Part shown: positions 1,591 through 63,295 of the stretch, one piece after another
How the letters are laid out: each line of letters begins with the position of its first letter
How positions within the stretch are numbered: position 1 is the stretch's first letter
Source of the DNA: Acutalibacteraceae bacterium
GTDB taxonomy: Bacteria; Bacillota; Clostridia; Oscillospirales; Acutalibacteraceae
Direction: 5' to 3'
Assembly (NCBI GenBank): GCA_045612765.1
Contig: JAZKZS010000013.1
Location: forward strand, 5,275 to 69,274
Length of the DNA stretch: 64,000 bases
Notes under the pieces: model-generated
The model's database searches: none
What the model was told of the DNA's origin: nothing
The model's input: only the letters and a program-made list of their open reading frames with translations
Position numbers and translations under genes: made by a program

Positions 1591-1677
1591 TGGTGCCGAT
1601 GACCGGACTTGAACCGGTACGATATTGCTACCGAGGGATTTTAAGTCCCTTGTGTCTGCCTATTCCACCACATCGGC
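1591..1677 (-). tRNA. tRNA-Leu (anticodon UAA), CCA encoded
   Basis: Minus strand has acceptor pairing GCCGATG...CATCGGC followed by A-CCA. It has a long variable arm, T-arm GGTTCAAGTCCGG and anticodon loop CTTAAAA. Length is 87 nt. Confidence 0.9.
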
Positions 1678-23564: not shown

Positions 23565-23597
23565 TAAAAAAGGCAATTCAGTAAGAACTGAATTGCC
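23565..23597 (-). promoter_or_regulatory. terminator-like hairpin in the pflB 5' leader (candidate attenuator)
   Basis: Minus strand has an 11-bp perfect stem GGCAATTCAGT/ACTGAATTGCC with loop TCTT. It is followed by T6, then immediately ATGGAGG (SD) and the ATG at 23550. Confidence 0.45.
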
Positions 23598-23672
23598 CAG
23601 ACGGTCGACATAACTATCAATGCAATTCCCGTGGTTATATCCACAATCCGTCAGTCTTGCACTGTATAGTAT

Positions 23673-25594: not shown

Positions 25595-25611
25595 GGGTTC
25601 GAATCCCCGAT
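25595..25611 (+). repeat. 17-nt inverted copy of the tRNA-Lys T-arm (tRNA fragment)
   Basis: GGGTTCGAATCCCCGAT is the exact reverse complement of 25675-25691, inside the intact tRNA-Lys. No acceptor or anticodon arms are present around it. Confidence 0.7.
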
Positions 25612-25665: not shown

Positions 25666-25741
25666 TGGTGATCCATCGGGGATTCGAACCCCGGACACCT
25701 TGATTAAAAGTCAAGTGCTCTACCGTCTGAGCTAATGAATC
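25666..25741 (-). tRNA. tRNA-Lys (anticodon UUU), CCA encoded
   Basis: Minus strand has GATTCAT...ATGGATC followed by A-CCA, D-arm AGCTCAGACGGTAGAGC, anticodon stem-loop CTTGA-CTTTTAA-TCAAG and T-arm CGGGGTTCGAATCCCCG. Length is 76 nt. Confidence 0.9.
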
Positions 25742-33155: not shown

Positions 33156-33169
33156 TTATATAAATTGGA

Positions 33170-33381
33170 AGTTTATCGCTCGGTTGAATGGATATATCAT
33201 TGGCTCCCTCTGACGAGGGAGCTGGCACGAGGAACTCGTGACTGAGGGAGAGAAAGTGCTTATTTACAGTGTTTTCGGTCTCTCCCTCCGTCTTTTTGCT
33301 TTGCAAAAATCCACCTCCTTCATCAGATGGAGGCAAGGGTCTGTACAATAATTCCGAATTCCGCATTACGCATTCCGAATT
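33170..33381 (+). repeat. hairpin-dense non-coding element C (ORF-less relative of the DUF559 cassette?)
   Basis: The element contains five hairpins. They are GCTCCCTC-TGAC-GAGGGAGC (33203-33222), CACGAG-GAA-CTCGTG (33226-33240) and a 10-bp stem GAGGGAGAGA/TCTCTCCCTC around a 25-nt loop (33244-33288). The last two are TTTTTGC-TTT-GCAAAAA (33293-33309) and CCTCC..GGAGG (33314-33333). An ATTCCGAATT direct repeat follows at 33351-33360 and 33372-33381. The element lies between an upstream terminator and a downstream promoter. Confidence 0.7.
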
Positions 33382-33421
33382 GGGCATCATCCCCACAAAC
33401 TATAATTTTAAAATTAAATTA

Positions 33422-57877: not shown

Positions 57878-58570
57878 ATGCTGTTTTACTATGGTTTGGA
57901 CTATTATTATTTAGTCTTGGTTTTACCTGCGATTTTGCTTATGATGATTGCACAATTTTCGGTAAAATCCACCTTTTCAAAATATTCGCAAAAGCTTTGC
58001 AACATAACAGGCGCCGAGGCTGCTCGCCGTGTCCTTAACGCAAATGGCGTAAGCGGTGTAAAAATCGAACGTGTTTCGGGAAATTTAACCGACCATTTTG
58101 ACCCCAAAACTAACGTTATTCGCTTATCTGATGCGGTTTATAACAGCAATTCGGTTGCCGCCGCAGGCGTTGCCGCACACGAAGCAGGGCACGCAGTGCA
58201 ATACGCCTTAAACTATGCACCAATAAAAATTCGTGGCGCAATTTACCCTGTTTGCAACTTAGGCTCCAAACTCGCTATTCCCCTTGTTATGTTCGGCTTT
58301 TTATTCAGTTTTTATTATTTAATTGATTTGGGCATTATCTTTTTTGCATTGGCACTTTTGTTTCAGCTTGTTACCCTGCCGGTTGAATTTAATGCTTCCC
58401 GCCGTGCGATAAATGCCCTTTCAGGATATGGCATTTTAGCGAATGAAGACGAAGTAAAGGGCGCTAAAAAAGTGCTTTTTGCCGCCGCAATGACATACGT
58501 AACATCATTCCTTGTGTCATTGGCACAATTACTTCGTTTACTAGCCCTTGCAAACAGACGAAGAAGATAA
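57878..58570 (+). CDS. membrane zinc metallopeptidase (YugP-like, Zn_peptidase_2)
   Basis: HEAGHAVQ motif with N- and C-terminal TM helices. Confidence 0.8.
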   Translation: MLFYYGLDYYYLVLVLPAILLMMIAQFSVKSTFSKYSQKLCNITGAEAARRVLNANGVSGVKIERVSGNLTDHFDPKTNVIRLSDAVYNSNSVAAAGVAAHEAGHAVQYALNYAPIKIRGAIYPVCNLGSKLAIPLVMFGFLFSFYYLIDLGIIFFALALLFQLVTLPVEFNASRRAINALSGYGILANEDEVKGAKKVLFAAAMTYVTSFLVSLAQLLRLLALANRRRR

Positions 58571-58575
58571 AATTA

Positions 58576-58607
58576 AAGTACGGTAGATTATCTGCCGTAC
58601 TTTTTTT
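58576..58607 (+). terminator. terminator after the metallopeptidase gene
   Basis: Stem GTACGG..CCGTAC followed by T7. Confidence 0.75.
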
Positions 58608-58629
58608 ACACTTTTATACTTCAAATTAT

Positions 58630-58745
58630 AGTTTATCGCTGCGCGATTAAATAATAAATAATAAAATTGATGTCGGCTTTGCCGACATATTTATATGTCG
58701 TGGCATAGGCACACATTTTTTTCTTATTCGTTTTTTATTATTCAT
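58630..58745 (+). repeat. structured AT-armed element A (same family as 62745-62850)
   Basis: The element begins with AGTTTATCGCT, which also starts element C at 33170. It then has hairpin ATCGC-TGC-GCGAT and an AT-rich arm TAAATAATAAATAATAAAATTG. Two more hairpins follow: ATGTCGGC..GCCGACAT (58670-58688) and one at 58696-58715. The right arm ends ...TTTTTTATTATTCATT. Confidence 0.65.
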
Positions 58746-58775
58746 TAAATCAAAGAAATCGGAGTTAATATATTT

Positions 58776-58901
58776 ATGAAGGCTACAGGCATTGTTATAA
58801 GAATAGAGGCTCGTGTTATTATAACACAAGAAGTCGCTTAAATCCTTATAAATAATGAACTTGTTGGCGATTTTTCAAGAGAGACTTTTGACAAAAAATA
58901 G
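58776..58901 (+). pseudogene. decayed AbrB/SpoVT/MazE-type (swapped-hairpin) gene remnant
   Basis: It reads MKATGIVIRIEARVIITQEVA-stop-ILINNELVGDFSRETFDKK-stop. The N-terminus resembles the AbrB-family start MKATGIVRR.D.LGRVVIPKEIRR.L.I.EGD, with an apparent 3-residue gap and an in-frame TAA. Confidence 0.35.
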
Positions 58902-58922
58902 CATATTTTGACCTATCATAGC

Positions 58923-58951
58923 AAAAGCGAGGTGAATTTCACCTCGCTTTT
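58923..58951 (-). terminator. terminator after the SSS symporter gene (symmetrical)
   Basis: Stem AAAAGCGAGGTG/CACCTCGCTTTT with loop AATTT. Confidence 0.75.
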
Positions 58952-58976
58952 ATATAAAAATGGTTTTGGGCAAAAA

Positions 58977-60560
58977 TTATAGAGCGTTATGATATGGAAT
59001 AACCCAAAGAACAATCAAGGCTACAGTTACTGCGACACTGAATAACAAGAAACCTATAAGGGTGCGCTTGGTTTTTTTCTGTTCCTTAGGATCATTTTCT
59101 TTTTCGGGAACTAAGAACAATTTTTCTCTGGCTTGTTTTTCTTCATCGGTGGGTTGTGTTAACGCGGAACCAATTACCAAGGCTAAAATATTAGCAACCA
59201 AACCGACAACAAATGAGTCTAAATAAATAGGCAACGTAATACCGCCCACGGCGCTAATAATTTTCATAACGGCGCAACCTATAAATCCACACAACATACC
59301 CGCAAAAGCACCGGTTTTAGTTACCCTCTTGCTCCAGACAGATGCAATGCAAACAGGGAACCAAGAACAAACTACAACAGTACCGCTAAGCAACAAAATA
59401 ACGTATATCTGAGGCGGATTGAAGTATGCAAGAATCATAACTAAGATGCAAACTATTAATATTGCAATCCTACTATAACGCAGTTTTTTTCTATCATCTT
59501 TAAACTCAACAATATCATTTGCTATTGAAGAACCGATGAGGGAAAGGAAGGTTGTAGCAGAGGAAATACCTGCGGCGAGTACACCTGTTAGAGCAACTAT
59601 ACCAATAATAGGAGGAACTAAATTCATAACACCCCAAATCATTGAGTGAACAGGACTTGGAATTACGTCGCTATAAACCTTTAAAAGAGCGCCTGTAGTA
59701 GGAATGAAAAATTCCAATGCAGCAACAAACATAGCGGCCCAAACAGACGAACGAATAACAACGTGCTCGTTCTTTGCCATTAAATAGCGGCTTGACTGCC
59801 AAGGTGCTACCGCACAAACCGCAGTCCAGGTAAGACCGGTCATAATAGCCCAAGCCATATTTTCCGCGCCGGTAGGATAGAGATAATTTAAATCTCCACG
59901 CCAAGATAGTAAAGCATCGTCTAATTTAGTTATATTCTCAATAGCAGTGTTCCAACCACCAAGTTTACCTATAATAATACCAACGGAAATTAGGGAAAAA
60001 ATAGTGAAAATGCTAAACATTAAGGTGTCAGTTATCAAAACACCCTTCGACCCTGATGTAATAGTTAAAATGGCGAAGGTAAGAAGAGCTAAAAATACAC
60101 AAAGATTATAGTTGACGCCGGTTACGTAATTCATTAAAGTTCCAATACCTTGCATTACAGAAAGGGTATATACCGCCATAGTGATAATAGCGGTGATGGC
60201 TGCCAAAACTCTCAGAGGTTTAGAATCGAAGCGTTTTCCAAAAAATTCGGATATAGTAATTGCCTCGCTGCGACGCAGATATTTTCCAAAAAAAACGCTT
60301 CCAAGGACATAACCTCCGATTAACATCATAACCGTCATCATAAATGGGCTGAATAATCCGCTATAAGCTTCTCCGACATCGCCCATAAATAAGCCTGTGG
60401 AACAATATGAAGCAACCAAAGAACCAACAATAAGAAATGTTGGCGCATTACGGCCGGCAACAAAGAAGTCGTTGGCATTTTTTACACCTTTGCTAATGAG
60501 CAAGCCAAGAGCAACATATATAATCATAGAAATTATCATACCGATTAAGTATGCATTCAT
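58977..60560 (-). CDS. sodium:solute symporter (SSS family)
   Basis: 527 aa with about 13-14 TM helices and an N-terminal region ...FFVAGRNAPTFLIVGSLVASY typical of SSS. Confidence 0.85.
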   Translation of the reverse strand: MNAYLIGMIISMIIYVALGLLISKGVKNANDFFVAGRNAPTFLIVGSLVASYCSTGLFMGDVGEAYSGLFSPFMMTVMMLIGGYVLGSVFFGKYLRRSEAITISEFFGKRFDSKPLRVLAAITAIITMAVYTLSVMQGIGTLMNYVTGVNYNLCVFLALLTFAILTITSGSKGVLITDTLMFSIFTIFSLISVGIIIGKLGGWNTAIENITKLDDALLSWRGDLNYLYPTGAENMAWAIMTGLTWTAVCAVAPWQSSRYLMAKNEHVVIRSSVWAAMFVAALEFFIPTTGALLKVYSDVIPSPVHSMIWGVMNLVPPIIGIVALTGVLAAGISSATTFLSLIGSSIANDIVEFKDDRKKLRYSRIAILIVCILVMILAYFNPPQIYVILLLSGTVVVCSWFPVCIASVWSKRVTKTGAFAGMLCGFIGCAVMKIISAVGGITLPIYLDSFVVGLVANILALVIGSALTQPTDEEKQAREKLFLVPEKENDPKEQKKTKRTLIGFLLFSVAVTVALIVLWVIPYHNAL

Positions 60561-60661
60561 TATTTTTTACCTCCTTTATAGTCTTTTGTTATTCGAAAAT
60601 AACAAATAAGGCCGATAGAAAGTAGATATACACCTAGGAAAATTGAAACTATGTATTCCAT
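60560..60661 (-). CDS. 33-aa single-TM ORF, probable symporter small accessory subunit (not in the ORF track)
   Basis: It reads MEYIVSIFLGVYLLSIGLICYFRITKDYKGGKK. The ATG lies 8 nt after AAGGGAG. Its TAA overlaps the symporter ATG (TAATG), and the symporter SD GGAGG lies inside it. Confidence 0.55.
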   Translation of the reverse strand: MEYIVSIFLGVYLLSIGLICYFRITKDYKGGKK

Positions 60662-60706
60662 TTTAAATACTCCCTTTTTAATAAATTTTTATAAGTTTAT
60701 ATTAAA

Positions 60707-62479
60707 TTACCCATGGCTTTCAATTTGTGAATTAAACTCTTTCTGATAACGTTTAAATACAGTCATATATTTGAGCATCAAATCCGCATAATCATTGCCG
60801 CACTTGACCATATAAAGTGCCCATATATACCAATAGTAAAACGATACAGCCGCACAACCGACTATGTGTTGTTTTTCAGAAGCAGTGGGAGTTCGCTGAA
60901 AATAATAATATAGCCACTTGTCAATATCAAAACCCTCCGCATCATTTTTAACAAACAATTTGCAAAGGTCAAAACCAATATCGGTATCACCGGCATATTC
61001 CCAGTCTATTAAATAAAGCTTATTTCCTGAAATTAGCAGATTATCTTCATATAAATCGTTATGTATCATTTGAATAGGCCAATTGTCTGATTTGATTATT
61101 TCGTCTATTTTTTTTATATTGTCTAACTGAGATACGGCAATCTGGTATGCCTCGACATCTAAGGTTTTTATGCCTGCAAGCAGTTTTATAGCCTCATCCA
61201 TATAATCCATACGTTTGCCGCAGGTAATCGGATTATCATGCATTTTTCTAAGAGTCTGACATAGCATTTGCAAACACTTTGAGTTTGCAAAATCAAAATC
61301 ATCGGTTATATTGATAAAATGAGAAATTTTCCAACCGTTCTCATCGTCGCAATAAATATAAGAATCATCTATACCTTGCTGTTTTGCATATTCCAAAGCT
61401 TTTTTCTCACTTTTTCTGTCTATCCATTCAGAAGAAATGTCGCCGGGGTTTCTGTAAACGTAAGATTTTCCTTTACAAATAAAACTGAAAGAATGGTTAG
61501 TGTATCCCTTGTTTATTGGACGAATTTCACAGATATCACCTGGAACACATTTAAGGGTGGAACAGATGTTTTCGATTAAAGCAATGCTGTTGTACTTAAT
61601 ATATTCAGGATCGAATGCCTCCAATTCTGCTATAGAATCAAACTCTATAATCTGTTGAGAGCTATATCTTTTTTCATACAACGGCAGTTCACTAACGTGC
61701 TCGGCATACACTTGCTCCCAATAAAGTCCGTCAGTTCCGGGAGTATCGTATATTTGCTCTAAAATAGGTTTGAATTTGTCGCTGAATTCCTTATTAAAAT
61801 AAGCGTATCCATTCATTACCCATTGGTTAACAGAGGGGCGTTGAGTCGCAACGATAAGTCCCTTGCTATCAGTAAATACTCCGCGCTCACCGTGTAGAAC
61901 TCCTTCCATATAAATGGTAGAATATAAAGAATGGGGTTCGTATTTGTGAAATACTGATTTAGGGAAATAATTATCCGCACAGCATATATAACTGCTTTTC
62001 AAAAAATCTCTTGAGAAATATAAACTAGAATGGGTGTTTTTGTGTCTGTATTCTTTATTTATAACAACTTTAACGTCGAATTTATCAACAAGATATAGAA
62101 ATTTCTCCAACATAGCTCCAAGAACAAGGATAATTTCTTCTATACCGGCTTCTTTCAGCTGTCTGATTTGACGTTCAATTAAAACCTCACCCTTAACAAC
62201 AGTTAAGCCTTTTGGTTTTTCGTAGGAAAAAGGAATAAATCGGGTGCTCATACCGGCAGCAAGAATAATAGCATTTTTAACTTTGTAAGGTTCCATTGCC
62301 TTTATTCCTTCGGGCAATACCTGATAACATTCTGTTACATAACCTTTTTTTCTAAGCTTTGAAATTACAGAATTTACCGTTCCAAGAGAAAGGTCTAATT
62401 CTTCCGAAATCAATCTTTGTGTAGATGACCCGGAATTTTCACAAAAAAATCTAAGCACCTTAAATTCGTTTTGCGTCAT
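60707..62479 (-). CDS. tri-domain protein: winged-helix HTH + LicC-like nucleotidyltransferase + LicA-like choline/ethanolamine kinase
   Basis: There are three recognisable parts. The N-terminus is STQRLISEELDLSLGTVNSVISKLRKKGYV. The NTP-transferase region is AIILAAGMSTRF...KPKG. The kinase region is IHNDLYEDNLLI...LIDWEYAG (Brenner/APH motifs). Confidence 0.75.
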   Translation of the reverse strand: MTQNEFKVLRFFCENSGSSTQRLISEELDLSLGTVNSVISKLRKKGYVTECYQVLPEGIKAMEPYKVKNAIILAAGMSTRFIPFSYEKPKGLTVVKGEVLIERQIRQLKEAGIEEIILVLGAMLEKFLYLVDKFDVKVVINKEYRHKNTHSSLYFSRDFLKSSYICCADNYFPKSVFHKYEPHSLYSTIYMEGVLHGERGVFTDSKGLIVATQRPSVNQWVMNGYAYFNKEFSDKFKPILEQIYDTPGTDGLYWEQVYAEHVSELPLYEKRYSSQQIIEFDSIAELEAFDPEYIKYNSIALIENICSTLKCVPGDICEIRPINKGYTNHSFSFICKGKSYVYRNPGDISSEWIDRKSEKKALEYAKQQGIDDSYIYCDDENGWKISHFINITDDFDFANSKCLQMLCQTLRKMHDNPITCGKRMDYMDEAIKLLAGIKTLDVEAYQIAVSQLDNIKKIDEIIKSDNWPIQMIHNDLYEDNLLISGNKLYLIDWEYAGDTDIGFDLCKLFVKNDAEGFDIDKWLYYYFQRTPTASEKQHIVGCAAVSFYYWYIWALYMVKCGNDYADLMLKYMTVFKRYQKEFNSQIESHG

Positions 62480-62595
62480 TGAAAGAATCTCCTTTGTTCG
62501 TTTTTTGGGTATTTTTTCAAAAAAATGAACACGCTAATAAAAAAATAAGCCAAATATGGTACGCTCTGCTTATAACTTTAATAGCACTGAATAAT

Positions 62596-62624
62596 TATAT
62601 AACATATATAAACGAAAAAGTCAA
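62596..62624 (-). promoter_or_regulatory. sigma-A type promoter for the licC/licA-like gene
   Basis: Minus strand reads TTGACT, a 17-nt spacer ending in TGT, then TATATA. A 19-nt spacer would give TATAAT. Confidence 0.5.
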
Positions 62625-62744
62625 ATTAAAAATTAAACCCAGTGGTATAAATCCTTTTTTAACACAAGCGCTGACGTCACATTTTGAATTAAAGGAGAAA
62701 TGTATATGTGAAAGTAACAGGAGCGCAATGCGGAGCCTTGCAAA

Positions 62745-62850
62745 TTAATAATGAATAGTTAATAATTGAAAGTTGTGCCTTCGGCACGATATATAAATCC
62801 GTCGCGAAGCGACACCAAAATTCTTCATTTTTTATTTTTCATTATTCATT
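62745..62850 (+). repeat. structured AT-armed element B (same family as 58630-58745)
   Basis: Left arm TTAATAATGAATAGTTAATAATTGAAAG, then hairpin GTGCC-TTC-GGCAC (62775-62787) and spacer GATATATAAATCC. Next is hairpin GTCGC-GAA-GCGAC (62801-62813). The right arm ends ...TTTTTCATTATTCATT and is partly complementary to the left arm. Confidence 0.65.
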
Positions 62851-62917
62851 CGCGTAAGCTTAAACCCCAATTTCACATATTAATTTCCAAACTGCGCATA
62901 CTAAAACAGGTGAAATT

Positions 62918-63295
62918 ATGGCTAAAATTATTATGTTTTTAATTGGGTCCTTTGGATATGGTTTAATTGAAATTTTATGGCGTGGACGCACCCATTTTTC
63001 AATGCTTTTGGCAGGCGGTGTTTGCTTTTGCGGTTTTGCATATTTAGGTAAAAAATTAAAACGGTTTAATATGCTTATAAAGGCGGTTACAGGCAGTGCT
63101 TTTGTAACATTTGTCGAGCTTGTTTTTGGTATATTTTTTAACCTTATTTTAAAGCAAAACGTGTGGAATTATTCCGCTCGCCCCTTTAATTTTAAGGGGC
63201 AAATTTGCCTTTTATATTCGGTTTATTGGGCGGCTTTAAGCGTTATTTTTATGCCTTTGGCACAAAAGGTAAATAACCGATTGCAAAACAAATAA
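62918..63295 (+). CDS. small 4-TM membrane protein (resembles the 'putative ABC-transporter type IV' / CmpB-like family)
   Basis: 125 aa starting ...GSFGYGLIEILWRGRTHFSM. SD is AGGTGA. The family assignment is from memory only. Confidence 0.5.
   Translation: MAKIIMFLIGSFGYGLIEILWRGRTHFSMLLAGGVCFCGFAYLGKKLKRFNMLIKAVTGSAFVTFVELVFGIFFNLILKQNVWNYSARPFNFKGQICLLYSVYWAALSVIFMPLAQKVNNRLQNK

What the first reader, a model, noticed from the sequence alone, without database searches (positions are those of the whole stretch)
58630..58745. Element A: one of two ~110-nt AT-armed elements with conserved hairpin positions but different hairpin sequences
Elements A (58630-58745) and B (62745-62850) share a layout. 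Each has an AT-rich left arm (TAAATAATAAATAATAAAATTG in A, TTAATAATGAATAGTTAATAATTG in B), then hairpin 1, an AT spacer, hairpin 2 and an AT-rich right arm.
- Spacer: ATTTATAT in A and GATATATAAATCC in B.
- Hairpin 2 begins GTCG in both.
- Right arm ends in the identical decamer ATTATTCATT in both.
- Hairpin 1: ATGTCGGC/GCCGACAT in A and GTGCC/GGCAC in B.
- Hairpin 2: TGT-GTG..CAC-ACA in A and GTCGC/GCGAC in B.

The arms are conserved in sequence. The hairpins keep pairing while changing sequence. That pattern is expected if structure, as RNA or single-stranded DNA, is what is selected.

Element A also starts with AGTTTATCGCT, the same 11-mer that starts element C at 33170.

From memory, similar ATTCAT-rich arms next to GC hairpins occur in other gut Clostridia. 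I know of no functional description.
Basis: partly seen in the sequence, partly recalled or inferred. Interest (0 to 1): 0.62.

Follow-up and report, generated by a model that had tools for sequence, protein, structure and literature searches.

The report
Inverted fold-back repeats bracketing inserted genes
Elements A and B are two inverted copies of a multi-copy, hairpin-forming intergenic repeat of ruminant-gut Clostridia, and together they form the ends of a 4.2-kb transposon-like insertion that brought a choline-uptake gene pair into this genome; this is an undescribed but ordinary kind of mobile repeat, not a demonstrated structured RNA.

Summary
A (58628-58746) and B (62743-62868) are real and related far beyond chance. 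The best alignment is A reverse-complemented against B (score 85; shuffles 24 ± 4).

Each is a fold-back unit: arms made of 7-nt tandem repeats, (AATRAAT)n and (ATTYATT)n, enclosing two short GC hairpins.

In close relatives the flanking Zn-peptidase and CmpB-like genes are adjacent. Window 58628-62868 (4241 bp) is therefore an insertion. It holds A, an SSF symporter, a LicC/choline-kinase-type gene and B.

Its outer ends, ATAGTTTATCG… and …TAAACCCC, are imperfect inverted repeats with AATT on each side. The same termini bound element C and unrelated short inserts at this and other sites in relatives.

A stringent pattern scan found 17 further units, 16 in herbivore-gut Oscillospirales/Clostridia MAGs. 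Rumen metagenome contigs pile up about 90-fold on B's outer half. Rfam gives nothing, and no RNA data were available.

Best reading (0.6): a non-autonomous, modular MITE/foldback-like mobile repeat family, mobilised in trans, here carrying passenger genes. The transposase is unidentified.

The parts
58624..58627 (.). AATT directly left of the insertion. It is the putative 4-bp target duplication, left copy.
   Evidence: AATT flanks both ends in 7 of 9 termini-bearing elements. The empty allele of site 2 (L067) has a single AATT.
58628..58645 (+). Left terminus ATAGTTTATCGCTGCGCG. It contains a small ATCGC-TGC-GCGAT hairpin at 58635-58647.
   Evidence: The same terminus bounds inserts in L005, L008 (two sites), L009 and L026. 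The 15 nt GTTTATCGCTGCGCG are identical to the reverse complement of the L026 right end. The hairpin appears in the folds.
58646..58746 (-). Fold-back unit A, inverted relative to B. Outer arm 58646-58669; hairpin ATGTCGGCTTTGCCGACAT 58670-58688; spacer 58689-58699; degenerate hairpin GTGGCATAGGCAC 58700-58712; inner arm 58713-58746.
   Evidence: folded as DNA, z = -3.5. Contig depth in rumen run X1 is 35-77 against a baseline of about 4.4.
58776..58841 (+). 21-codon remnant of an AbrB/MazE-type gene start (MKATGIVIRIEARVIITQEVA*).
   Evidence: Translation. The intact homologue MKATGIVRRIDDLGRVVIPKEIRR… lies next to the licC-type gene in L073.
58917..58958 (.). Bidirectional terminator-like hairpin AAAAGCGAGGTGAATTTCACCTCGCTTTT at the 3' end of the symporter gene. 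It is part of the imported DNA.
   Evidence: The same hairpin follows the orthologous symporter gene in L070 and L071. Contig depth exceeds 1000 in X1.
58977..60560 (-). Passenger gene 1: sodium:solute symporter (527 aa).
   Evidence: Pfam SSF, E = 4e-33. It is absent between the Zn-peptidase and CmpB-like genes in L002-L004, L008 and L067.
60707..62479 (-). Passenger gene 2: wHTH + nucleotidyltransferase + choline-kinase fusion protein (590 aa, LicC/LicA-like).
   Evidence: Pfam hits. In L070 and L071 the same gene pair sits in a locus containing LicD, with no A/B units and no termini.
62686..62729 (+). Degraded ribosome-binding site and start of an AbrB-type gene (ATGTGAAAGTAACAGG; the metagenome consensus is ATGAAAGCAACAGG = MKATG), cut off next to B.
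   Evidence: variants G62708A and T62715C at depth 120-350. The donor-like context is seen in L073.
62743..62850 (+). Fold-back unit B. Inner arm 62743-62774; hairpin GTGCCTTCGGCAC 62775-62787; spacer 62788-62800; hairpin GTCGCGAAGCGAC 62801-62813; outer arm of 7-mers 62814-62850.
   Evidence: RNA fold z = -3.7; longest inverted repeat in the window; depth up to 450 against about 5 on 62797-62850; 17 further loci.
62851..62868 (+). Right terminus CGCGTAAGCTTAAACCCC, an inverted-repeat partner of the left terminus.
   Evidence: the rcA/B alignment runs through CGCG…AAAC…AATTT. Other copies read …CATTCGCCAGCGATAAACCCCAATTTA (loose ends).
62869..62872 (.). AATT directly right of the insertion. 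It is the putative target duplication, right copy.
   Evidence: The right flank AATTTCACATA is shared with the unoccupied alleles L002 and L067.
33167..33403 (-). Element C: a 237-nt member with the same termini and a GC-hairpin interior. It is inverted (GGAAGTTTATCG on the left, CACAAACTAT on the right) and flanked by AATT at 33163-33166 and 33404-33407.
   Evidence: DNA fold z = -3.9. Its right part matches the left arm module of L026. There is no Rfam match.

Best explanation
**What A and B are.** They are two inverted copies of a fold-back repeat unit of about 105 nt, or about 120 nt with the outer terminus. The unit belongs to a modular, multi-copy family of intergenic repeats in herbivore-gut Oscillospirales. 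Its layout is:
- a 5' arm of tandem 7-mers, (AATRAAT)n;
- a GC hairpin;
- an AT spacer of about 10-13 nt;
- a second GC hairpin, consensus GTCGCGAAGCGAC, followed by ACC;
- a complementary 3' arm, (ATTYATT)n.

**How they sit in this genome.** In this lineage such units lie inside non-autonomous, transposon-like elements. These are delimited by imperfect terminal inverted repeats (left ATAGTTTATCG…, right …CGATAAACCCC) and flanked by AATT on both sides.
- A carries the left terminus and B carries the right terminus.
- Together they delimit one 4241-bp insertion (58628-62868).
- That insertion placed a choline-uptake/activation gene pair between the Zn-peptidase and CmpB-like genes. The pair was copied from a lic-type cell-wall locus.

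**Shown.**
- The insertion is real.
- The inverted termini exist.
- Termini of this type bound unrelated inserts at the same site and at other sites.
- The unit is present in many copies in related MAGs and in rumen metagenomes.

**Inferred.**
- A transposase encoded elsewhere moves the elements in trans. It would recognise the termini and duplicate AATT at an AAATTT-like target.
- The fold-back core serves the element, for example in synapsis or cruciform/ssDNA hairpin formation, rather than the host.
- The 7-mer arms grow and shrink by slippage.
- The passenger genes were captured between two units, in the manner of a MITE-flanked composite or a foldback transposon.
For: **Presence/absence at an orthologous site**
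- Relatives with 87-95% identical Zn-peptidase have the CmpB-like gene 72-330 bp downstream (L002-L004, L008, L067). The window has 4.3 kb there.

**Shared termini, different contents**
- L005/L007 hold a 140-nt GC-hairpin element at the same site and L008 holds an element of about 230 nt. Both have the same termini as the window's insertion.
- A second site, between the abhydrolase and enolase genes, is occupied in L008 and L009 and empty in L067 and L068.

**Termini and flanking AATT**
- The termini are inverted repeats, and rcA aligns to B through the terminus.
- AATT is present on both sides in 7 of 9 elements. The empty site 2 has a single AATT.
- L002 site 1 reads TATT-ACAG-CCAC-AATT. 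This resembles an excision footprint of AATT-ATAG|CCCC-AATT.

**Complete short members**
- L026 holds a 155-nt element with both termini.
- L028 6455-6632 holds a solo fold-back with both termini, (AATGCAA)n arms and two hairpins.

**Copy number and distribution**
- A pattern with 24 specified bases, expected about 0.1 times by chance, hit 17 loci. Sixteen are in ruminant or other herbivore-gut Oscillospiraceae, Acutalibacteraceae or Clostridia MAGs. Several MAGs or loci have two copies.
- Logan contigs of four gut metagenomes reach depth up to 450 on 62797-62850, against about 5 on flanking DNA.

**Non-autonomy and origin of the cargo**
- The insertion encodes only the two passenger proteins.
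- Elsewhere that gene pair lies in a LicD locus without these repeats.

**Repeat-mediated rearrangement**
- L005 lacks the four genes between site 1 and site 2 and keeps one element at the junction.
Against: - No transposase or recombinase with matching ends was found.
- The rest of the source genome was not available. Copy number in this genome is therefore known only for 64 kb, which holds three termini-bearing elements.
- AATT is itself a palindrome, so it could be the outermost part of the inverted repeat rather than a duplication.
- The filled and empty alleles at site 1 also differ in their terminators, which makes that comparison less clean.
- The tips of the two ends differ consistently (ATAG vs CCCC). 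That is unusual for DDE transposon ends.
- A and B lack inner termini, so a simple 'two complete MITEs' composite does not fit.
- 15 of the 17 units found in other genomes lack the GTTTATCG termini and show no obvious target duplication. The unit may therefore spread by another route.
- A and B are only about 70% identical, so the event is not recent.
Confidence: 0.6

Rival explanations
1. The ends are recombination sites of a site-specific recombinase (tyrosine or serine type). In a circular intermediate the joined ends would read CGATAAAC-CCC-AATT-ATA-GTTTATCG. That is two inverted binding arms around an asymmetric core, with AATT as the crossover sequence shared with the target. The locus would then behave as a cassette-exchange hot spot, comparable to integron cassettes or to the modules flanked by plasmid dif-like (pdif) sites.
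For: - The asymmetry of the tips (ATAG vs CCCC/TCCC/CTTCC) is conserved across genomes. A directional core would explain it naturally.
- The same chromosomal site holds four different contents with identical borders.
- L002 site 1 (…ATTACAG·CCACAATTT…) matches the joined outer flanks plus tips at 20 of 25 positions, as an attB-like sequence would.
Against: - The two ends are inverted repeats. Integration by a simple site-specific recombinase leaves direct repeats.
- The empty site 2 (L067) lacks the TAG·CCCC sequence.
- The integron core sites RYYYAAC/GTTRRRY are not present in the required arrangement.
- No recombinase gene was seen next to any element.
Confidence: 0.12
2. The units are mobilised as single-stranded DNA by an HUH/Y1 enzyme, as REP/REPIN elements are by a RAYT (REP-associated tyrosine transposase), or as IS200/IS605-derived palindrome-associated elements are. 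The GC hairpins would be the recognition structures.
For: - The hairpins have GAA/TTC triloops. From my own knowledge, GCGAAGC is the classic very stable DNA mini-hairpin.
- Units without the GTTTATCG termini show no target duplication.
- The left tip reads ATAG or GTAG.
- Other inserts with the same termini contain REPIN-like doublets that begin with GTAGGG… and end with …CCCTAC.
Against: - The A/B hairpins begin GTGC or GTCG, not GT[AG]G.
- The elements have clear terminal inverted repeats and flanking AATT, which IS200/IS605 and REP elements lack.
- No Y1 transposase gene was identified.
Confidence: 0.12
3. The units are structured RNAs or ssDNA elements under selection for structure, for example small RNAs, 5'-UTR regulators or bidirectional insulators/terminators. 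Their repetition would be secondary.
For: - The fold-back energies are better than those of shuffles: B as RNA z = -3.7, A minus strand z = -3.1, L019 z = -8.3, L028 solo z = -5.6.
- The upstream hairpin varies in sequence but is usually present.
- Three units abut a ribosome-binding site (L014, L017, L019).
- The 5' arm contains stop codons in all three frames on both strands, as the sequence shows directly.
Against: - There is no Rfam match, even at E ≤ 10.
- The units have no consistent gene neighbourhood or orientation.
- Arm length varies widely and is asymmetric; L019's arms are about 90 and about 45 nt.
- The hairpin differences look like module swaps.
- The units are absent from orthologous sites in close relatives.
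- No transcript data could be obtained.
Confidence: 0.1
4. A and B are not a functional pair. They would be chance AT-rich similarity, or leftovers of a local duplication.
For: - The two are only about 65-70% identical.
- AT-rich, low-complexity arms inflate apparent similarity.
Against: - No shuffle or other AT-rich window reaches the observed alignment score.
- Independent copies exist in 17 loci of other genomes and in many metagenome contigs.
Confidence: 0.03

Closest known systems
Bacterial MITEs such as the Neisseria Correia elements, pneumococcal RUP and Bacillus cereus bcr1 (from my own knowledge).
   Same: - Short, non-coding and multi-copy.
- Intergenic, with terminal inverted repeats and a fold-back structure.
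- A short AT-rich target.
- Presence/absence polymorphism between strains.
   Different: - No parent IS is known here.
- The arms are built of tandem 7-mers of variable number.
- The interior is modular and interchangeable.
- The tips of the two ends differ (ATAG vs CCCC).
- One member carries 3.6 kb of passenger genes.
MITE-flanked composite structures, such as integron mobilisation units and the 439-bp MITEs that flank class 1 integrons in Acinetobacter (from my own knowledge).
   Same: Two copies of a short non-autonomous repeat bracket passenger genes that encode no transposition function, and the whole unit is bounded by the repeats' outer ends.
   Different: - Here each flanking copy has only its outer terminus.
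- The two copies are about 70% identical, not near-identical.
- Movement of the composite as one unit is inferred, not observed.
Mosaic repeats: E. coli BIMEs/REP elements and pneumococcal BOX elements (from my own knowledge).
   Same: - Modular construction from a small set of hairpin-forming sub-units with variable copy number.
- Location near the 3' ends of genes and near terminators.
- Very high abundance.
   Different: - The BOX modules and the REP GT[AG]G motif are absent from A and B.
- This family has defined terminal inverted repeats and a likely target duplication.
Foldback (FB) transposons of Drosophila (from my own knowledge; an analogy only).
   Same: - Long inverted terminal regions composed of short tandem repeats of variable number.
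- The ability to bracket and move unrelated genes.
   Different: - FB elements are eukaryotic and much larger.
- There is no sequence relationship, and no homology is claimed.

Membership tests
MITE (non-autonomous element with terminal inverted repeats) | Terminal inverted repeats. | tested here: met
   The left end ATAGTTTATCGCTGCGCG matches the reverse complement of the right end, GGGGTTTAAGCTTACGCG. The rcA/B alignment runs through the termini. The same termini occur in L005, L008, L009, L026 and L028.
MITE (non-autonomous element with terminal inverted repeats) | Target-site duplication. | tested here: inconclusive
   AATT lies on both sides in 7 of 9 elements, and the empty site 2 has a single AATT. 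However, AATT is a palindrome and could instead be part of the inverted repeat. Site 1 'empty' alleles look like a footprint or an att-like site.
MITE (non-autonomous element with terminal inverted repeats) | Small size and no coding capacity. | tested here: not met
   Solo members are 140-240 nt (C, L005, L008, L026, L028). The A…B element itself is 4241 bp and carries two passenger genes. It carries no transposition gene.
MITE (non-autonomous element with terminal inverted repeats) | Many copies within one genome. | tested here: inconclusive
   The 64-kb window holds three termini-bearing elements. Three MAGs each have two stringent hits, and L027 and L023 each hold two units. Rumen contigs show about 90-fold excess depth. 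The rest of the source genome could not be read.
MITE (non-autonomous element with terminal inverted repeats) | An autonomous partner IS with the same ends. | not testable with these tools
   The genome and metagenome scan quotas were exhausted. None was seen in the loci held.
MITE (non-autonomous element with terminal inverted repeats) | Insertion polymorphism at orthologous sites. | tested here: met
REP/REPIN elements with a RAYT transposase | A conserved GT[AG]G immediately 5' of a short palindrome, arranged in inverted doublets. | tested here: not met
   The A/B hairpins start GTGC or GTCG. GTAG/ATAG occurs only at the element tip. REPIN-like GTAGGG…CCCTAC doublets occur in other inserts but not in A or B.
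REP/REPIN elements with a RAYT transposase | An associated Y1 (RAYT) transposase gene. | not tested
   The window's 56 ORFs were not all scanned. Only the four genes around the element were.
Integron attC site / gene cassette | One imperfect palindrome per cassette carrying R'' (RYYYAAC) and R' (GTTRRRY) boxes, with the crossover at G|TT and direct orientation along the array. | tested here: not met
   GTTTATC and GATAAAC lie at opposite ends of the insert in inverted orientation. No GTT lies at the right border on the same strand.
Curated structured RNA families (Rfam 15) | A covariance-model match. | tested here: not met
   There is no hit at the gathering threshold in the window. Only noise appears at E ≤ 10 over A and B and at E ≤ 1 over C.
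Intrinsic terminator | A GC-rich stem directly followed by a run of T. | tested here: inconclusive
   The consensus scan flags the A hairpin 58670-88 on both strands and the B hairpin 62800-14 on the minus strand. The tails are interrupted AT-rich 7-mers. Both neighbouring genes already have their own terminators (58580-58607 and 58917-58958).

The most novel reading that the evidence does not exclude
The conserved asymmetric ends (AATT-ATAGTTTATCG … CGATAAACCCC-AATT) would mark a dedicated cassette-exchange or gene-capture system in uncultured rumen Clostridia. In this reading, fixed chromosomal hot spots swap inserts ranging from 140-nt hairpin modules to multi-gene cassettes. The swapping enzyme would be an as yet unknown recombinase or transposase that reads the ends. 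The fold-back units, with their 7-mer arms and very stable GAA-triloop hairpins, would act as its ssDNA or cruciform recognition modules. This would be a Gram-positive analogue of integron attC or dif-module logic.
Probability: 0.15. Interest if true: 0.75.

Novelty: new member of a known kind. Interest (0 to 1): 0.45.

Why it matters
- It identifies and delimits an apparently undescribed repeat family that is abundant in ruminant-gut Oscillospirales.
- It explains a strain-specific 4.2-kb acquisition of choline uptake/activation genes, which are likely used for phosphocholine decoration of the cell wall.
- It shows the same elements marking hot spots of insertion, turnover and deletion. One relative has lost four genes between two element sites.
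- For MAG annotation, these units are a likely source of spurious small ORFs, contig breaks and strain-level structural variation.
- If the ends prove to be substrates of a new recombinase or transposase, the family would offer a handle on gene flow in an uncultured, economically relevant group.

Tried and rejected
**Searches that found nothing useful**
- Rfam at the gathering threshold and at permissive E-values returned only noise.
- Exact-protein look-ups for three window proteins were not on record.
- A search for RNA sequencing runs found none.
- Raw-read runs X19 and X20 do not contain this organism.
- The metagenome scan with the 19-nt left end gave 13 hits. Most are chance matches in unrelated environments; only L031, L032 and L040 look real.
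- Four viral-contig scans gave nothing or chance coding matches.
- A distant plasmid BLAST with B found no match.
- A literature search for six signature sequence strings found no paper. Two keyword searches turned up no description of this family.

**Ideas considered and dropped**
- Hammerhead ribozyme for the CUGAUGAG in C-type elements. The motif lies inside a plain hairpin and there is no GAAA core.
- dif/Xer site and IHF site resemblance of the terminus. Neither consensus matches.
- Fur/Zur-box resemblance of the 7-mer arms. The 7-1-7 inverted arrangement is missing.
- Promoter function. TTTACA-16-TATAGT overlaps the left tip, but promoter-like sites are not enriched and the -35 element is not conserved in relatives.
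- Homologous integration of a circle into a resident unit. This would give direct copies, and A and B are inverted.

**Analysis not completed**
- A structural alignment for pair counting (A2) placed the variable hairpin inconsistently. No covariance model was built, and hairpins were tabulated directly instead.
Full report
**1. The observation**

A lies between the terminator of a Zn-peptidase gene (57878-58570, +) and a convergent symporter gene (58977-60560, -). B lies between a divergent LicC/choline-kinase-type gene (60707-62479, -) and a small CmpB-like membrane-protein gene (62918-63295, +).

The similarity between A and B is not a by-product of AT-richness.
- In a sensitive blastn of A against the whole window, B is the only hit above noise. 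It is found in both orientations (E = 1e-6 on the minus strand, 2e-5 on the plus strand). A also hits its own reverse complement. The next best match has E = 0.02.
- Smith-Waterman scores are 61 for A vs B and 85 for rcA vs B. One thousand dinucleotide shuffles give a mean of 24, sd 4 and a maximum of 46. The best of 71 other windows with less than 30% GC scores 36.
- B contains the longest inverted repeat of the 64-kb window: 38-nt arms, 71% complementary.

**2. Correction of the anatomy**

The better alignment is A reverse-complemented against B. It is collinear over about 125 nt.

| Segment | rcA | B |
|---|---|---|
| Hairpin 1 | GTGCC-TAT-GCCAC (one C·C mismatch) | GTGCC-TTC-GGCAC |
| Spacer | GACATATAAATAT | GATATATAAATCC |
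| Hairpin 2 | GTCGGC-AAA-GCCGAC | GTCGC-GAA-GCGAC |
| Terminal block | CGCGCAGCGATAAAC | CGCGTAAGCTTAAAC |

An arm precedes hairpin 1, and a second arm lies between hairpin 2 and the terminal block. The alignment then continues into …AATTT.

The two hairpins are therefore homologous in sequence. The only compensated change between A and B is one extra G:C pair in the GTCG…CGAC hairpin.

The arms are tandem 7-mers: AATTAAT AATGAAT AGTTAAT… on the 5' side and …TTCATTA TTCATT on the 3' side. Identity at lag 7 is 0.70 in both arms of B and 0.69 across the family, but only 0.45 in A's right arm. At most other lags it is 0.2-0.5.

Each unit folds back on itself, with the arms pairing and the two small hairpins at the tip.
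- B as RNA: -32.3 kcal/mol, z = -3.7.
- A, minus strand, as RNA: z = -3.1.
- A as DNA: z = -3.5.
- B as DNA: only z = -1.2.

**3. A and B are the ends of an insertion**

The Zn-peptidase protein has relatives of graded identity in uncultured Clostridia MAGs from ruminants.

In L002-L004 (94% identical protein) and L067 (87%), the CmpB-like gene follows the Zn-peptidase gene after only 72 bp. In L008 (95%) it follows after 330 bp. In the window, 4.3 kb lie between the two genes.

The inserted segment is 58628-62868 (4241 bp).
- Its left end is ATAGTTTATCGCTGCGCG, followed by unit A.
- Its right end is unit B, followed by CGCGTAAGCTTAAACCCC.
- The two ends are inverted repeats of each other.
- AATT lies immediately outside both ends (58624-27 and 62869-72).

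The cargo is an SSF symporter and a wHTH-nucleotidyltransferase-choline-kinase fusion protein. In other Clostridia MAGs this gene pair is 73-74% identical and sits in a locus containing LicD, with no such repeats. The pair even carries the same terminator hairpin.

In L073 (87% identical) an AbrB/MazE-type gene lies divergently upstream of the fusion gene. This explains the degraded 'MKATG' gene start that abuts B at 62686-62729. A second 21-codon AbrB-type remnant follows A at 58776-58841.

The element therefore carries imported passenger DNA and no transposition gene.

**4. The termini define a family that includes element C**

A search of all fetched loci finds pairs of AAATT-ATAGTTTATCG (left) and CGATAAAC(C/T)CCC-AATTT (right) bounding very different contents.

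| Location | Content between the termini |
|---|---|
| L005/L007, site 1 | 140-nt GC-hairpin element |
| L008, site 1 | GC-rich element of about 230 nt |
| L008 and L009, site 2 (abhydrolase/enolase) | short elements containing GTAGGG…CCCTAC doublets |
| L026, Acutalibacteraceae MAG | complete 155-nt element with both termini, whose right half is an A/B-type module (hairpin 2 + 7-mer arm) |
| L028 6455-6632 | complete solo fold-back with (AATGCAA)n arms, two hairpins and GTAGTTT tips |
| Window element C, 33167-33403 | same termini, inverted orientation, AATT on both sides |

The empty allele of site 2 (L067) has a single AATT where filled alleles have AATT-element-AATT. This fits a 4-bp target duplication at an AAATTT-like target.

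At site 1 the unoccupied alleles read TATT-ACAG-CCAC-AATT (L002). That looks like AATT-ATAG|CCCC-AATT with three substitutions. It could be an excision footprint or, alternatively, an att-like target. A more distant relative (L068, 78%) has neither an element nor such a sequence.

L005 lacks the four genes between site 1 and site 2 and keeps one element at the junction. This is a repeat-mediated deletion.

**5. The fold-back unit is a widespread multi-copy repeat**

This pattern has 24 specified bases and about 0.1 chance matches are expected. It returned 17 loci.
- Sixteen are in Oscillospiraceae, Acutalibacteraceae, Ruminiclostridium or Clostridia MAGs from sheep, goat, deer and other guts.
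- Three MAGs have two hits each.

The unspecified parts of these hits show the same architecture:
- a GC hairpin of variable sequence;
- an AT spacer of about 10 nt;
- the conserved hairpin, followed by ACC;
- 7-mer arms, often with a complementary (AATGAAK)n arm on the other side. L019 has about ten copies of the 7-mer.

An nhmmer profile found second copies in L027 and L023.

Logan contigs of four gut metagenomes that contain this organism pile up on 62797-62850 to depths of 24-450, against a baseline of about 2-5. Many matches stop exactly at 62850 or continue with CGC-CAGCGATAAACCCCAATTTA. One contig shows two units in tandem. A's outer part is also over-represented, at 35-77 against 4.4.

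15 of the 17 units in other genomes lack the GTTTATCG termini and show no obvious duplication. The unit is therefore a module that also exists outside the termini-bearing elements.

**6. Structure versus sequence at family level**

The hairpin upstream of GTCGCGAAGCGAC has about ten different stems. Examples are GTGCC, TATGCC, TATCCCC, GTCCCC, GGGCGGGC, GGGCGGCC, GCTCCCCC and GTGTGCGC.

A perfect stem of at least 5 bp is present in 7 of 15 members, against 5% of shuffles. Most of the rest have imperfect stems.

However, the stems coincide with GC-hairpin modules that recur in other repeats of these genomes. Module exchange is therefore at least as likely as compensatory evolution.

MAFFT could not place this hairpin consistently, so no formal covariation statistic is offered.

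Both conserved hairpins have GAA/TTC triloops. From my own knowledge, GCGAAGC is the classic very stable DNA mini-hairpin. This is a hint, and no more, that the structure matters as DNA.

**7. What it most likely is**

The evidence consists of:
- insertion polymorphism;
- terminal inverted repeats;
- a probable 4-bp duplication;
- non-coding solo members of 140-240 nt;
- high copy number;
- a modular interior;
- association with deletions and gene gain.

Together this fits a non-autonomous mobile repeat family of MITE type, with a mosaic (BIME/BOX-like) interior and foldback-like arms of tandem repeats. In the window, two inverted units bracket passenger genes, much as MITE-flanked composites do. 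I put this at 0.6.

Three steps are inferred rather than shown: mobilisation in trans by an unidentified transposase, movement of the 4.2-kb unit as a whole, and any role for the fold-back core.

The rival readings are:
- site-specific recombination with AATT as the crossover core (0.12). It is favoured by the conserved asymmetric tips but disfavoured by the inverted arrangement of the ends;
- HUH/Y1 single-strand mobilisation (0.12);
- a selected RNA structure (0.10). There is no Rfam hit, no consistent gene context, and no transcript data;
- chance (0.03).

**8. Novelty and limits**

No paper in the searchable library contains the signature strings. No Rfam family matches and no plasmid record matches.

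This is a new member of a known kind, of moderate interest.

The limits of this analysis are:
- The remainder of the source genome, and therefore the true copy number and any autonomous partner, could not be examined.
- The genome and metagenome scan quotas are spent.
- No RNA data exist for this organism in the served runs.

Noticed in passing
window 58917-58958: The palindromic terminator-like hairpin AAAAGCGAGGTGAATTTCACCTCGCTTTT reaches contig depths of 160-1330 in four gut metagenomes, against a baseline of about 5. Near-identical copies follow the symporter gene in L070 and L071. It may be a very widely shared terminator or a separate REP-like repeat.
   Followed up: partly
window 58776-58841 and 62686-62729: Two independent remnants of AbrB/MazE-type gene starts (MKATG…) lie just inside A and B. 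The 44 nt at 62686-62729 are themselves highly over-represented in metagenome contigs (depth 120-350).
   Followed up: partly
window 33167-33403; L005 7750-7895; L028 7770-8000: C-type elements from a low-GC genome and a high-GC genome share a hairpin layout with changed sequence. GGCTTCCCCTTGAGGGGAAGC corresponds to GGCTTCCCCCGGGGGGAAGC, and GATGAGGTG…CACCTCATC corresponds to GATGAGGAATG…CATTCCTCATC. This could be a conserved structure. There is no Rfam match.
   Followed up: partly
L005 7693-7899, compared with L001 and L008: One relative lacks the four genes (CmpB-like, alanine racemase, FGGY kinase, abhydrolase) between the two element sites. A single element sits at the junction, so this is a repeat-mediated deletion.
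   Followed up: yes
L002 795-825 and L067 7725-7750: The unoccupied alleles of site 1 carry ACAG·CCAC between TATT and AATT. This resembles the two element tips (ATAG, CCCC) left behind between duplicated AATT copies, which would be a possible excision footprint.
   Followed up: partly
L009 4119-5886 (the same in L010): A different insertion of about 1.8 kb, carrying HTH_3 and DUF6036 genes, sits at the very start of the ychF gene. The first ~17 nt of ychF (ATGAAACTAGGTATGGT) are repeated at both borders. This is a separate integrative element.
   Followed up: no
L008 12025-12182 and L009 11767-11950: Inserts with the same termini contain REPIN-like inverted doublets that begin with GTAGGG… and end with …CCCTAC. 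This hints that these genomes may also have a REP/RAYT-type system.
   Followed up: no
L019 2140-2230: The left arm is expanded to about ten tandem AATGAAG units directly upstream of a gene's ribosome-binding site. This microsatellite-like length variation could alter expression of the neighbouring gene.
   Followed up: no
window 23588-23668 (-), 1591-1677 (-), 25666-25741 (-): A ZMP/ZTP riboswitch and tRNA-Leu(TAA) and tRNA-Lys(TTT) genes. A 17-nt perfect copy of part of tRNA-Lys lies at 25595-25611, in inverted orientation.
   Followed up: no
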